Source: Escherichia phage 121Q
Length of the DNA stretch: 64,000 nt
Direction: 5' to 3' (one strand)
Sequence record: NC_025447.1
Position 1 is the first letter of the stretch. Each line of letters opens with the position of its first letter. Shown here one piece after another: positions 17,623 to 20,404 of this stretch. Below the pieces are notes generated by a model that ran no database searches, had not been told where the DNA came from, and was given only the letters and a program-made list of their open reading frames with translations. Position numbers and translations under genes: made by a program.

Positions 17623-17964
17623 ATGCGTGAGTTTTTTGAATCTAATATAATGCTTGGTATCACACTGATATACATGTTTGTATTCTTGTTTTATCATTCA
17701 ATTGTAATTAGTCTTTGGTATTTTAAAAGGAAAGTTGTTTTTAAATTGTATTCATATAATAATGTATTCTTGGTTGTATATAGCATTATACAAGGTGGAT
17801 TTATTTTATTTGGTGTGATGACATATGTGATTTACATGTTACAAATTGATAACACACCACACATTACACAATATGTTGTGTTTTCAGGACTAATCGTCTG
17901 GTTATTGGTGTGTACTATGTACTTTATTATTAAAGCTCGTGATAACTTTAAATGGGGATTCTAA
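17623..17964 (+). CDS. membrane protein, cluster-2 paralog
   Basis: hydrophobic; TLIYMFVFLFYH..WYFKRK motif shared with next gene. Confidence 0.6.
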   Translation: MREFFESNIMLGITLIYMFVFLFYHSIVISLWYFKRKVVFKLYSYNNVFLVVYSIIQGGFILFGVMTYVIYMLQIDNTPHITQYVVFSGLIVWLLVCTMYFIIKARDNFKWGF

Positions 17965-18302
17965 TGTTAGAATTTTTTAAATCAGATACAATGATTAGTA
18001 TTACTTTGATTTATCTTTTTGGTTTTTTCTTTTATCATGCACTAGTTGTAGTACTATGGTATTTTAAAAAGAAAATTGTTTTTAAACTGTATCCAGTGAG
18101 GAATTCATCACTAGTTCTTTACACACTTGTTCAAGGTTTGTTTGCAATTGTTGGTCTTATGGCACACTTAATTTATTGTGCTAATCCTCACTTGAACTCA
18201 ATCTCACAATATATTGTATTCTTTGGATTGTTCATTTGGTTAGTTGCATACTTAATCCATCTCATTATTCATGGTAGAGATAAAATTCGCGGAGACTTCT
18301 AA
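17952..18302 (+). CDS. membrane protein, cluster-2 paralog
   Basis: close paralog of 17623 gene. Confidence 0.6.
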   Translation: MGILMLEFFKSDTMISITLIYLFGFFFYHALVVVLWYFKKKIVFKLYPVRNSSLVLYTLVQGLFAIVGLMAHLIYCANPHLNSISQYIVFFGLFIWLVAYLIHLIIHGRDKIRGDF

Positions 18303-18649
18303 TGTTTGAAGCTTATCTTGAGTTTTTAAGGAGTAGTCCAGTTGCACATTCACTTGCAGGGATTATTCTAACAACTTATGTATCATTTTGGGTAGTTATG
18401 TTTCTAGGATGGTATTTTAAACGACAATTCTATAAACGTAATGGTGAAGATTTTATGAATTCTGTCATTAATCAATCGTTGTTTGCATCAACATTGATTG
18501 CATGTATTGTAGCAACACTCACAGGAAAGGTACTACCAGCTTTTTCCGCAGTTTACGGCACACTTGGGATGATATGTTTAACTTTTATATTGACCATTAA
18601 AATTTGTTGTGTTATGATTGAACTTCGAAATAAGATACCGGAGGAATGA
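18302..18649 (+). CDS. membrane protein, cluster-2 paralog
   Basis: hydrophobic; WYFKRQ motif; ends NKIPEE like cluster-1 tails. Confidence 0.6.
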   Translation: MFEAYLEFLRSSPVAHSLAGIILTTYVSFWVVMFLGWYFKRQFYKRNGEDFMNSVINQSLFASTLIACIVATLTGKVLPAFSAVYGTLGMICLTFILTIKICCVMIELRNKIPEE

Positions 18650-18984
18650 TGGAGTACTTTATTGATTTACTGCCGTGGTATATGAAAGTTAGTACCATGT
18701 ACTATATTATTAGTGCTGGATTCTACTTTCTGATGTGGTTCTTTAAACGACCAATTTCAGTATTCATCGCTGATAACATGCTGCAATTAAAATTACACGC
18801 ATGGTTTGGTATGGCGATGATTATGCCTATTATTCACTACTCAATGATTAGTAGAGGTTTCCGTTCTAATGGTGAACCAATTGTATTAGTATTCTATTGG
18901 GGTTCAACTATTGCATATGTAAGTTTGTTGTTGTTCCCAGTCGTTCATAAGTTACGTGCTAAAGTTCCTGATGCGAGGTACTAA
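18646..18984 (+). CDS. membrane protein, cluster-2 paralog
   Basis: hydrophobic; overlaps neighbours by 4 nt. Confidence 0.6.
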   Translation: MMEYFIDLLPWYMKVSTMYYIISAGFYFLMWFFKRPISVFIADNMLQLKLHAWFGMAMIMPIIHYSMISRGFRSNGEPIVLVFYWGSTIAYVSLLLFPVVHKLRAKVPDARY

Positions 18985-19299
18985 TGGATATAGTAACATT
19001 GATTTACACGTTGTATTCATTCTATTTCATTATGTGTTGGGTTGGATTTTTATTTGTACTCAAGATGTTTGATTATGTTGAAAAACAGATAAAAGAATTT
19101 TGTATTCCTTTTATCGGTTCAACCATTATTAGTGTTTCTTGTGTGTATTTTTTTGGTTTTTGATCCACCAGATAACACTGCAATGATTGACTTGATGTTA
19201 CTACCAACAACTGTTACTTTTTTATGTAGTCTGATGCCGCCGATTAGCCGTGGACTAACAGAATTTAGACGCAATCAAAAGCGTAAACGAGGGATGTAA
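18984..19299 (+). pseudogene. membrane protein paralog interrupted by apparent +1 frameshift
   Basis: 59-aa hydrophobic ORF 18984-19163 and a +1-frame hydrophobic continuation open from 19093 to stop at 19299; combined length matches neighbours. Confidence 0.4.
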
Positions 19300-19667
19300 T
19301 GGAAATTGCTCTTATTATCTTAACTGCTATGCTGTTTATTAGTACTGTGGTTATAATTGGTAAATTCTTTTGTGTATCATTTTTAGAAACGGTATACGAT
19401 GAAATTGCTGATGATTATGAATTCCAAGCCGGATTTTTCATTACGTATTGGCTTAGTTTATTTTGTCTAGTCATTGCTTGGATTTTACATATCTTTAAAT
19501 GGGGTATGGTAGACGGTGATCCTATTATGGCAATTATTGTTCTAGTGTTTGGTATCCTTGGTGGTGCAGTGCATAATCTAATGGTTATCTGGCAAACTGT
19601 TCAATATGTTTTGGTTCCCTATTTCGAAAAGATGCACAGTACAATTAAAAAACGTAAACGAGGTTAG
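19299..19667 (+). CDS. membrane protein, cluster-2 paralog
   Basis: hydrophobic, basic C-terminal tail. Confidence 0.6.
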   Translation: MEIALIILTAMLFISTVVIIGKFFCVSFLETVYDEIADDYEFQAGFFITYWLSLFCLVIAWILHIFKWGMVDGDPIMAIIVLVFGILGGAVHNLMVIWQTVQYVLVPYFEKMHSTIKKRKRG

Positions 19668-19668
19668 T

Positions 19669-20031
19669 ATGAACGGGATAGAATTATCTTTCGTTGGTCA
19701 ATTACTAGTAATGGCGTATACATTTATCTTCTCACTGAATGCATTCGTGTGCATTGGGAAGTACTTCCATAAGCGACCATTATCAAATATATATGATGTA
19801 ATCCAAAAGAGATATAGTCCAGCATATACTGTGTTGGGTACAGTATTCAATTTTGGTTTTATTGTATTAATAATTGGACTGTTCACATCCTCTTTGAATA
19901 CAATAACCTTCGGTCTTATGATATGTTCATTGGTATTAGCCGTAATTATATGTTGTTTAGTACTGCACCTTGTGGTACTATTGTATATAAAGATCTCTGA
20001 AATCCACCAACGTTTGGGTATGAGGAAATAA
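19669..20031 (+). CDS. membrane protein, cluster-2 paralog
   Basis: ATG 19669 with SD GAGG (track start 19606 is internal to upstream gene). Confidence 0.6.
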   Translation: MNGIELSFVGQLLVMAYTFIFSLNAFVCIGKYFHKRPLSNIYDVIQKRYSPAYTVLGTVFNFGFIVLIIGLFTSSLNTITFGLMICSLVLAVIICCLVLHLVVLLYIKISEIHQRLGMRK

Positions 20032-20032
20032 T

Positions 20033-20404
20033 ATGAGTTACCGTGAGATATTTTCCATTATTTCAATTATTATGTTCAGTACTGGAACACTGGTATGGTT
20101 ATTATACTTCTTCTGTATTAATCCAGTGTATAATATGTTATGTAATATTAAATCAAGTGCCGGATATATCACTTTTATGGTCTTTATGGGATATTATTGT
20201 CTAAGCATTTTAGGTGTTGTTTTGGTTGTTATATTTGATGTGGGACCAAATAGTGATGGTATGGAAATACATGAATTAATAACCATGTTTGGATGTATGA
20301 TACCAACAGCACTACTGTTTGTAGCTACTGGTAGTGGATTGATAAAATTATATAATTATTTAAAATCCATTCATAATTCCATTCATAATAAGCGTATGTC
20401 ATAA
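20033..20404 (+). CDS. membrane protein, cluster-2 paralog
   Basis: hydrophobic 123-aa ORF. Confidence 0.6.
   Translation: MSYREIFSIISIIMFSTGTLVWLLYFFCINPVYNMLCNIKSSAGYITFMVFMGYYCLSILGVVLVVIFDVGPNSDGMEIHELITMFGCMIPTALLFVATGSGLIKLYNYLKSIHNSIHNKRMS

What the first reader, a model, noticed from the sequence alone, without database searches (positions are those of the whole stretch)
17623..20404. Tandem block of eight small membrane-protein paralogs (one frameshifted), related to a second cluster at 9829-10864
Eight consecutive ORFs of about 115 aa are strongly hydrophobic with basic C-terminal tails and overlap by 1-4 nt. The first two are near-duplicates. One member (18984-19299) is split by a +1 frameshift. 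Three similar genes at 9829-10864 end with N-I/L/M-P-E/N tails. This is a large expansion of one membrane family.
Basis: seen in the sequence. Interest (0 to 1): 0.5.

Follow-up and report, generated by a model that had tools for sequence, protein, structure and literature searches.

The report
Jumbo-phage array of small membrane-protein paralogs
Eight back-to-back genes, plus three more 8 kb away, in this giant E. coli phage encode small three-helix membrane proteins that profile comparisons show to be one old family confined to RaK2-like jumbo phages; their function is unknown but is probably an early action on the host inner membrane rather than cell lysis.

Summary
17623-20404 holds eight consecutive + strand genes of 104-123 aa (GRAVY 0.57-1.05, three TM segments each, basic C-tails). 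They are joined by 1-nt TAATG/TGATG overlaps or 1-nt gaps.

The fifth gene is broken by a T6->T7 homopolymer insertion at 19148-19154. It is intact in all seven relatives whose sequence I aligned. The window is an Asteriusvirus jumbo phage, probably 121Q.

Pairwise, only A1-A2 (47% aa), B1-B2-B3 and marginally A8-B1 are similar. PHROGs splits the genes into about seven families. Profile-profile comparison nevertheless links all groups with long collinear alignments (scores 23-61, against a maximum of 22.5 in 180 reversed, shuffled or unrelated controls). So "one family" is supported, but as an ancient divergence into two subgroups rather than a recent expansion.

The array follows an NrdC.10-like AAA+ ATPase gene behind a sigma70-type promoter/terminator cassette. 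This arrangement is conserved across RaK2-like genera. The family has only 18 cluster representatives among 1.84 billion proteins, and no Pfam, PADLOC or PDB relatives. The genes are under purifying selection and were not detected in the phAPEC6 virion proteome.

The most likely role is as early, non-structural inner-membrane (N-out/C-in) proteins that modify the host envelope. That is inferred, not shown.

The parts
16726..16758 (+). Terminator hairpin (GGGTTGAC-TTCG-GTCAGCCC plus T-run) overlapping a sigma70-type promoter (TTGACT-18-TATAAT, TG-extended). It heads the ATPase/array transcription unit.
   Evidence: There are 11 copies of the hairpin on the + strand against 0 expected. G17 annotates a terminator at the same place.
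16787..17557 (+). NrdC.10-like AAA+ ATPase (256 aa), first gene of the unit.
   Evidence: phrog_1250, E 8.5e-104. Pfam AAA domains. About 40% identical to T4-like NrdC.10, with 1307 phage records matching.
17565..17593 (+). Promoter-like site and hairpin (TTGACA-17-TACTAT, with an AGTACT inverted repeat) in the 65-nt gap before A1. Possibly a weak internal promoter.
   Evidence: A consensus match only.
17623..17964 (+). A1, 113 aa, 3-TM member (subgroup 1). A divergent paralog of A2. Absent from PBECO4, slurp01, phAPEC6, E9.1 and the EcMJ clade.
   Evidence: phrog_19454.
17964..18302 (+). A2, 112 aa, 3-TM member (subgroup 1). The conserved copy of the A1/2 type.
18302..18649 (+). A3, 115 aa, 3-TM member and the hub of the profile network. 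C-tail RNKIPEE.
   Evidence: AF2 pLDDT 81.
18649..18984 (+). A4, 111 aa (112 aa from 18646), 3-TM member. C-tail RAKVPDARY.
18984..19299 (+). A5, disrupted by one extra T in the T7 run at 19148-19154. A premature TGA lies at 19161-19163. With one T removed, it reads as a 104-aa protein 99% identical to that of CRJP21.
   Evidence: The repaired gene has dN/dS 0.11-0.32.
19299..19667 (+). A6, 122 aa, 3-TM member (subgroup 2). C-tail HSTIKKRKRG.
19669..20031 (+). A7, 120 aa, 3-TM member (subgroup 2). No PHROG match, and not annotated in several GenBank relatives.
   Evidence: AF2 pLDDT 87.6.
20033..20404 (+). A8, 123 aa, 3-TM member (subgroup 2). The only array-A member with a borderline pairwise match to cluster B (B1, E 1e-3).
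20409..20434 (.). 11-bp-stem palindromic hairpin directly after A8. G17 annotates it as a terminator. The T-run is on the minus-strand side only.
8781..8813 (+). The same hairpin/promoter cassette, here heading the operon that contains cluster B.
8809..9483 (+). T7 gp0.7-type protein kinase, first gene of the cluster-B operon (context only).
   Evidence: phrog_15752, E 1.2e-98. G17 annotation.
9829..10167 (+). B1, 112 aa, 3-TM member. C-tail RSNIPEK.
   Evidence: phrog_19285.
10177..10518 (+). B2, 113 aa, 3-TM member. C-tail RDNLPER.
10520..10864 (+). B3, 114 aa, 3-TM member. C-tail RKNMPNR.

Best explanation
The eleven genes (A1-A8, B1-B3) belong to one old superfamily of about 105-125-aa proteins confined to RaK2-like jumbo phages.

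Shared architecture: a short, often acidic N-tail; TM1; an invariant Phe in a [WY]-F-[KR] basic motif; a loop helix and TM2; a short polar loop; TM3; and a basic, helical C-tail.

Two subgroups: B and A1-A4 have tails of the form R-x-K-[ILMV]-P-[DE], and A5-A8 have tails of the form H-x-x-[IL]-x-x-[KR].

Shown here:
- The groups are homologous at profile level.
- All members evolve under purifying selection.
- The eight array genes have closely abutting or overlapping stop and start codons.
- The array follows an NrdC.10-like ATPase gene behind a sigma70-consensus promoter.
- The ATPase-plus-array arrangement is conserved across all RaK2-like genera sampled.
- The orthologs were not detected in the phAPEC6 virion proteome.

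Inferred:
- The eight genes are translationally coupled.
- The proteins insert N-out/C-in into the host inner membrane.
- They are made early, by host RNA polymerase.
- They act there, alone or as homo- or hetero-oligomers, to change the infected cell's envelope. The most likely single role is an Imm-like protective or superinfection-exclusion or host-takeover function. A lysis role is less likely.

The A5 frameshift is a strain-specific homopolymer change or a sequencing error, not a programmed feature.
For: Homology: hhalign network against 180 controls (earlier version). Hallingskeid and Turkey5 proteins bridge the groups. A window-wide specificity scan was clean. There is an invariant F and a collinear alignment.

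Architecture: K/R counts follow the positive-inside rule. AF2 models of A3 (pLDDT 81) and A7 (pLDDT 87.6, pTM 0.73) share one helix layout.

Real genes: dN/dS is 0.03-0.47 for all members.

Coupling: 1-nt overlaps or gaps, with Shine-Dalgarno sequences inside the upstream C-tail codons.

Early-type regulation:
- Identical hairpin-plus-TTGACT/TATAAT cassettes sit at 8781 and 16726.
- Cluster B's operon starts with a gp0.7-type kinase.
- The T4-type late motif TATAAATA is depleted, with none near either cluster.
- The related phage PA5oct depends on host RNAP (PMC7318152).

Non-structural: phAPEC6 gp011c-gp018c are absent from the virion proteome table.

Conserved synteny: RaK2, phage A4, Turkey5 and Hallingskeid, and CBB, Yen9-04, Munch and XbC2.

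Narrow distribution: 18 representatives among 1.84e9 proteins and 30 hits among 5.8e9.

Frameshift: unique to this genome among the 8 sequences compared.
Against: - No experimental or annotation evidence for any function exists. There are no hits to Imm, Sp, holin or defence models.
- Timing is inferred only from promoter consensus.
- The hairpin after A8 lacks a + strand T-run, so the limits of the transcription unit are uncertain.
- Links between the two subgroups are weaker than links within them (68-85% probability), and some pairs (for example A12-A5, A8-A4) show nothing directly.
- The profiles rest on few, closely related sequences.
- Small hydrophobic proteins are easily missed by virion mass spectrometry.
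- Overlapping stop and start codons are common in phage genomes and need not mean a complex.
- Part of the C-tail conservation may be nucleotide-level, from Shine-Dalgarno sequences.
Confidence: 0.55

Rival explanations
1. The conserved, non-redundant set (one each of the A1/2, A3, A4, A5, A6, A7 and A8 types) forms the subunits of a single hetero-oligomeric inner-membrane complex. Translational coupling would give fixed stoichiometry, and the complex might work with the co-operonic AAA+ ATPase.
For: The same seven types are kept, mostly in the same order, in Asteriusvirus, phage A4 and Turkey5, and six of them in RaK2, despite less than 25% identity between types. Five junctions are 1-nt overlaps. 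All members are under purifying selection. The ATPase-array linkage holds in every RaK2-like genus sampled.
Against: - Copy number is flexible: A1 is lost in many phages, A3 or A5 is duplicated in others, and Munch, CBB and Hallingskeid have about 4-11 members.
- A5 is disrupted here.
- Cluster B sits in a different operon.
- The ATPase allele is exchanged independently of the array (about 58% against 99% identity in CRJP21).
- T4-like phages keep NrdC.10 without any array.
- In EcMJ, A8 has a divergent allele while A3-A5 do not.
Confidence: 0.18
2. The proteins are holin- or antiholin-like lysis-timing proteins. Their size, three TM segments with N-out/C-in topology, and charged C-tail match the architecture of class I holins such as lambda S, and no holin has been established for RaK2-like phages.
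For: Architecture. [quoted passage not shown] The CBB/121Q endolysin has an N-terminal TM domain, which implies that a membrane-depolarising partner is needed (PMC5259590).
Against: - No Pfam or PHROG holin model matches.
- The genes are not next to an endolysin or spanin. They lie behind sigma70-consensus promoters in operons headed by an AAA+ ATPase or a host-takeover kinase.
- There is no T4-type late motif nearby.
- Eleven early-expressed holins would be expected to be lethal too soon (reasoning from general knowledge of holin biology).
- fEgEco12 is reported to have an annotated holin (PMC13070987), while the genes under its array match are all 'hypothetical protein'.
Confidence: 0.1
3. 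The resemblance among most members is only shared hydrophobic composition and length. On this view only A1/A2 and B1-B3 are true paralogs, and the block is a set of unrelated small membrane genes.
For: Most pairwise BLASTP and Smith-Waterman comparisons are not significant (z below 4). PHROGs' remote-homology clustering keeps the genes in about 7 families.
Against: 17 of 28 family group pairs exceed the maximum of 180 composition-preserving controls (reversed and shuffled profiles plus an unrelated 83-aa membrane family), most with collinear alignments of 74-118 columns. Bridging sequences exist. A scan of 385 ORFs gave clean specificity. Motifs are shared at equivalent positions.
Confidence: 0.05

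Closest known systems
Class I holins (lambda S105 type; described here from general knowledge of the Young-lab holin classification)
   Same: About 105-125 aa, three TM helices, predicted N-out/C-in topology, and a charged cytoplasmic C-terminal tail.
   Different: There is no sequence match to any holin HMM. The genes are not in a lysis cassette. The promoter context is early-type. There are eleven paralogs rather than one gene with a dual start.
T4 Imm (a small, early inner-membrane superinfection-immunity protein; from general knowledge)
   Same: A small, non-structural phage protein, presumably made early, that sits in the host inner membrane. It is encoded among host-takeover genes of a T4-related myovirus.
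   Different: There is no sequence similarity (no Pfam hit). Imm has two TM helices and is a single gene. No exclusion phenotype has been tested for this family.
PHROG families 19454, 19046, 27396, 33258, 26405, 27618 and 19285 (all 'unknown function')
   Same: The window proteins are full-length members (E 1e-52 to 1e-70).
   Different: PHROGs treats them as separate families. Here they are linked into one superfamily. A7 has no PHROG at all.
Other tandem paralog families of RaK2-like jumbo phages (for example the RCC1-repeat 'DNA condensation' genes next door; about 10% of RaK2 proteins are paralogs, PMC3622015)
   Same: Tandem arrays of diverged paralogs conserved across the clade.
   Different: These are small integral membrane proteins that are not virion-associated, whereas the RCC1 paralogs are soluble and found in virions (PMC7247149).

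Membership tests
Class I holin | Small protein with three TM domains, N-out/C-in, and a charged C-terminal cytoplasmic tail | tested here: met
   Hydropathy and positive-inside analysis. AF2 helix layouts. This is prediction only.
Class I holin | Sequence membership in a recognised holin family (Pfam or PHROG holin models) | tested here: not met
   No holin model hit at E<=1 in Pfam or at E<=0.01 in PHROGs.
Class I holin | Encoded in a late lysis cassette next to an endolysin or spanin | tested here: not met
   The neighbours are an AAA+ ATPase, a 220-aa protein of unknown function, and a kinase. The promoter is a sigma70 consensus, and no TATAAATA lies nearby.
Class I holin | Forms lethal membrane holes at a programmed time | not testable with these tools
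   Needs expression and lysis assays.
T4 Imm/Sp-type superinfection exclusion proteins | Sequence similarity to Imm or Sp families | tested here: not met
   No Pfam or PHROG match other than the unknown-function PHROGs.
T4 Imm/Sp-type superinfection exclusion proteins | Early-expressed, non-structural, envelope-located | tested here: inconclusive
   The promoter consensus and absence from the phAPEC6 virion proteome are consistent with this. There are no expression data.
T4 Imm/Sp-type superinfection exclusion proteins | Blocks DNA entry of superinfecting phage | not testable with these tools
   Needs plating and ejection assays.
The superfamily proposed here (RaK2-like phage 3-TM proteins) | Profile-level homology of every group to at least one other group, above composition controls | tested here: met
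   Every group has at least one link scoring 26 or more, against a control maximum of 22.5.
The superfamily proposed here (RaK2-like phage 3-TM proteins) | Common architecture: 3 TM, an invariant F in the post-TM1 basic motif, and a basic C-tail | tested here: met
   A6 is atypical, with an acidic loop 1.
NrdC.10-like AAA+ ATPase (for 16787-17557) | Full-length match to the NrdC.10 family | tested here: met
   phrog_1250, E 8.5e-104, covering profile positions 77-326, so the first 76 or so positions of the profile are not matched. About 40% identity to T4-like NrdC.10.
Known anti-phage defence systems (PADLOC) | HMM match of any array member | tested here: not met
   No hits for any member. 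The ATPase gives only P-loop noise.

The most novel reading that the evidence does not exclude
The conserved seven-to-eight-type set is a phage-encoded hetero-oligomeric inner-membrane machine. It would be assembled stoichiometrically from one translationally coupled polycistron early in infection. It would be specific to RaK2-like jumbo phages and have no cellular or structural counterpart. Possible roles include a membrane platform or channel that protects or re-wires the envelope during the long jumbo-phage cycle.
Probability: 0.15. Interest if true: 0.7.

Novelty: new variant of a known kind. Interest (0 to 1): 0.3.

Why it matters
RaK2-like jumbo phages are being developed for therapy, yet more than 80% of their genes are unannotated. 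This analysis merges about eight 'hypothetical protein' families into one membrane-protein superfamily with a defined architecture, a defined operon context (NrdC.10-like ATPase plus array) and a defined phyletic range. That gives a concrete, testable target for studying how these phages act on the host envelope: exclusion, takeover, or lysis control in a group where RaK2 was reported to lack the T4-type T holin and RI antiholin. It also flags a probable sequence or annotation defect (the A5 T7 run) and an under-annotated gene (A7) in public records. By itself the finding is not surprising to a specialist, because tandem paralog arrays of small membrane proteins are common in large phages.

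Tried and rejected
- Pairwise BLASTP and shuffle z-scores: too insensitive. Taken alone, they would have wrongly rejected the family.
- Pfam, NCBIfam and PADLOC scans of the members: nothing above noise.
- The afdb50 library was unavailable.
- Single-sequence search with A3 and tblastn with a Hallingskeid member: only close relatives or self.
- The gene after nrdC.10 in the T4-like phage JS10 was tested as a possible family member. It is hydrophilic and unrelated.
- The second gene of about 260 aa inside the CBB, Yen9-04 and XbC2 arrays was tested as an ATPase paralog. It shows no similarity.
- Programmed frameshifting at the T7 run was considered. It was rejected as the primary reading because all relatives have an in-frame T6 or TTATTT. 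Low-level transcriptional slippage cannot be excluded.
- Literature searches for nrdC.10 and for the array in the RaK2, CBB, Sharanji, fEgEco12 and phAPEC6 papers found no functional data.
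Full report
**Source and observation.** The window matches Asteriusvirus jumbo phages of E. coli. The region 17600-20420 is 99.3% identical to phages UB and CRJP21 and 99.0% identical to G17. The gene numbering quoted in G17's annotation notes runs from 121Q_224 to 121Q_232, with four numbers available for A4-A6. The pattern of 'identical' versus 'similar' notes also fits. Together these imply that the window is phage 121Q and that A5 is annotated there as two ORFs (inference).

Using the starts annotated in the relatives, they are:
- A1 17623-17964
- A2 17964-18302
- A3 18302-18649
- A4 18649-18984
- A5 18984-19299
- A6 19299-19667
- A7 19669-20031
- A8 20033-20404

All are hydrophobic (GRAVY 0.57-1.05), and each has three TM-like segments. 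Five junctions are 1-nt TAATG/TGATG overlaps and two are 1-nt spacers. The Shine-Dalgarno sequence of each downstream gene lies inside the last codons of the upstream gene.

**The frameshift.** A5 is split by one extra T in a homopolymer, T7 at 19148-19154. UB, CRJP21, PBECO4 and UE-S1 have T6 there, and G17, ph0011 and EcMJ have TTATTT. All seven encode an intact 104-aa protein. With one T removed, the window's A5 shows dN/dS of 0.11-0.32 against relatives. The gene was therefore under constraint until very recently. The simplest readings are a sequencing or assembly error, or a strain-specific mutation. If the change is real, translation stops at 19161-19163, 136 nt before the A6 start. That could weaken coupling to A6 (inference).

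**Is it one family?** Pairwise, only a few relationships are clear:
- A1-A2: 47% aa identity, E 5e-35. These are real paralogs but not near-duplicates; nt identity is 63%.
- B1-B2: E 1.5e-9.
- B2-B3: E 1e-5.
- B1-B3: E 6e-3.
- A8-B1: E 1e-3.

PHROGs assigns the genes to seven different unknown-function families and leaves A7 unassigned.

I collected the syntenic loci of G17, UB, CRJP21, PBECO4, UE-S1, ph0011, EcMJ, phage A4, RaK2, Turkey5 and Hallingskeid. I grouped the orthologs and compared the group profiles with hhalign. Within subgroups the results were:
- B-A1/2: 95.4% (E 1.7e-8, 102 columns)
- B-A3: 94%
- A1/2-A3: 94.9%
- A3-A4: 96.7% (E 4e-10)
- A6-A7: 96.7% (E 3.6e-10)
- A6-A8: 93.3%

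Between subgroups, A3-A7 gave 84.5%, A3-A5 85% and A3-A6 68%. A6-A5, A7-A5, B-A7 and A4-A7 scored 25.7-26.9.

The controls were reversed profiles, column-shuffled profiles and an unrelated 83-aa membrane family from the same window. The 180 controls had mean 11.8 and maximum 22.5. Seventeen of the 28 family group pairs exceed every control, and none of the 8 comparisons with the unrelated family exceeds 12.1.

Two further tests agree. Single Hallingskeid proteins hit several groups at once. For example, Hallingskeid_5166 hits A3, A4 and B at about 5e-8, and Hallingskeid_7311 hits A7, A6, B and A5. In an HMM scan of all 385 six-frame ORFs of the window, every cross-group hit below 1e-3 is one of the eleven members.

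The master alignment has an invariant Phe in a post-TM1 [WY]-F-[KR] motif and collinear TM segments. I conclude that this is one superfamily with two subgroups, B plus A1-A4 and A5-A8. The similarity is not merely compositional.

**Age and dynamics.** Orthologs of the A1/2, A3, A4, A5, A6 and A8 types occur in RaK2 (genus Alcyoneusvirus), and orthologs of all seven types (A7 included) occur in phage A4 and Turkey5, mostly in the same order. Most of the duplications therefore predate these genera.

Recent changes are few:
- A1 is missing from PBECO4, slurp01, phAPEC6, E9.1 and the EcMJ clade.
- RaK2 has two A3-type genes.
- Turkey5 has two A5-type genes.

In every RaK2-like genus sampled, an NrdC.10-like ATPase gene is followed by a run of 105-132-aa hydrophobic proteins with basic tails. 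This holds for CBB and XbC2 (Mimasvirus), Yen9-04 (Eneladusvirus) and the Munch group. Many of these proteins give weak but specific HMM hits, for example the A3 HMM down to 4e-8. T4-like phages have NrdC.10 but no array.

Distribution outside this clade is nil. There are 18 cluster representatives among 1.84 billion proteins, all 56-123 aa, and 30 hits among 5.8 billion. All members are under purifying selection, with dN/dS of 0.03-0.47.

**Architecture.** K/R residues concentrate in loop 1 (1-5 per protein) and in the C-tail (2-7 per protein). The N-tail and loop 2 are acidic or neutral. By the positive-inside rule this gives N-out/C-in with three TM helices. A6 is an exception, with an acidic loop 1.

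The AF2 model of A3 (pLDDT 81) has helices at 2-11, 13-38, 42-52, 55-74 and 77-110. The AF2 model of A7 (pLDDT 87.6, pTM 0.73) has helices at 8-32, 38-73 and 76-118. That is the same layout in both subgroups. No informative structural neighbours were found.

**Context and timing.** The ATPase gene is preceded by a hairpin with a T-run that contains a TTGACT -35 box and is followed by TGcTATAAT. This hairpin occurs 11 times on the + strand, against 0 expected. One copy at 8781 lies just upstream of the gp0.7-type kinase gene that heads the operon containing B1-B3. G17's annotation places terminators before the ATPase gene and after A8.

The T4-type late promoter core TATAAATA is depleted in the window, with 2 copies against 13.7 +/- 3.2 expected, and it is absent near both clusters. 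The related phage PA5oct depends on host RNAP (PMC7318152). I infer early, host-RNAP-driven expression, but no transcript data exist.

In the phAPEC6 virion proteome, the neighbouring RCC1-like proteins gp003-gp010 are present. gp011c-gp018c, which comprise the 220-aa gene, the array and the ATPase, are not.

The ATPase allele recombines independently of the array. CRJP21's array is 99.3% identical to the window, while its ATPase is of the other allele type, about 58% identical at the protein level. This argues against tight co-adaptation between the ATPase and the array.

**Mechanism.** Homology, architecture prediction, closely abutting or overlapping stop and start codons, conserved synteny, purifying selection and non-detection in virions are shown. 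Translational coupling, membrane insertion N-out/C-in, early expression and action on the host inner membrane are inferred.

The single most likely role, at roughly 0.3, is an Imm-like envelope-protective, superinfection-exclusion or host-takeover function. This rests on analogy with small early inner-membrane proteins of T4-type phages (general knowledge) and on the host-takeover neighbours.

A stoichiometric hetero-oligomeric complex (about 0.18) is favoured by the retention of one gene of each type and by the coupling. It is weakened by the flexible copy number, the separate cluster B and the allele mosaicism.

A holin or antiholin role (about 0.1) is suggested by the class-I-holin-like architecture and by the reported absence of the T4-type T holin and RI antiholin in RaK2 (PMC3622015). 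It conflicts with the early-type context, the lack of an adjacent endolysin and the lack of any holin-model match.

**Caveat on the C-tail motif.** The P-E and R-G codons often contain the GGAG of the next gene's Shine-Dalgarno sequence. Part of the tail conservation may therefore be at the nucleotide level. However, B1 keeps the motif with CCT-GAA codons and has its Shine-Dalgarno sequence after the stop. Hallingskeid_6346 also carries the motif internally rather than at its C-terminus. Protein-level constraint is therefore also likely.

**Verdict.** The family interpretation is supported at profile level, but as an ancient, clade-restricted superfamily rather than a recent expansion. Function remains unknown. 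The finding is of moderate-to-low interest: it consolidates annotation usefully and offers a testable target, but it is not a surprise.

Noticed in passing
window ~21100-31000, minus strand: A tandem array of RCC1-repeat ('DNA condensation protein') paralogs lies convergent with the membrane array, and GC skew flips at about 21 kb. The phAPEC6 orthologs gp003-gp010 are virion-associated (PMC7247149).
   Followed up: partly
window + strand at 2695, 5936, 6119, 7696, 8781, 13276, 14558, 16726, 48922, 52616 and 57838: A 20-nt hairpin, GGGTTGACTTCGGTCAGCCC (allowing up to 3 mismatches), occurs 11 times against 0 expected. In the copies read in full, a T-run and TATAAT follow it. It looks like a combined terminator and sigma70 promoter cassette that punctuates the transcription units.
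   Followed up: partly
window 925, 11510, and about 13 sites between 39822 and 57564, + strand: A second promoter-like class, TTGACA-N11-AGTACTGTATAAT, is densely repeated in the 40-57 kb region. The AGTACT element also forms the hairpins before A1 and after A8.
   Followed up: no
whole window: The octamer TATAAATA (the T4-type late promoter core) is strongly depleted, with 2 copies (5502, 6150) against 13.7 +/- 3.2 expected. This suggests the motif is a functional signal that is avoided in this region.
   Followed up: no
window 16787-17557 compared with L003 (CRJP21), L005 (UE-S1) and L006 (ph0011): The NrdC.10-like ATPase exists as two deeply diverged alleles within Asteriusvirus (about 58% aa identity, dS saturated). 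A recombination breakpoint lies at the ATPase/A1 boundary. The alternative allele is 85-87% identical to that of Erwinia phage Hallingskeid.
   Followed up: partly
window 19669-20031 (A7); L003, L004, L005, L013: A7 is not annotated in the CRJP21, UE-S1, PBECO4 and phAPEC6 records, which show a short minus-strand ORF or nothing there. It is conserved, under purifying selection, and confidently modelled by AF2.
   Followed up: yes
L003 (CRJP21, OQ708376): Product names look displaced relative to the genes. Membrane proteins are called 'regulator of chromosome condensation' and B1 is called 'endonuclease V'. The UB record has fragmentary gene calls over an intact array.
   Followed up: no
window 12367-12618, + strand: An 83-aa, extremely hydrophobic ORF (GRAVY 1.5) is conserved in all Asteriusvirus relatives. 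It is unrelated to the family and matches no PHROG.
   Followed up: partly
L014 9747-10370, L015 9736-10356, L017 11245-11910, L008 13803-14354: In CBB, Yen9-04, XbC2 and phage A4 the array is followed by a gene for a DUF1190-type putative lipoprotein. In the window a different 220-aa gene (20446-21108, phrog_34359) occupies that position.
   Followed up: no
window 8809-9483, + strand: A T7 gp0.7-type protein kinase (phrog_15752, E 1e-98) heads the operon containing cluster B. Pfam gives no hit for it.
   Followed up: partly
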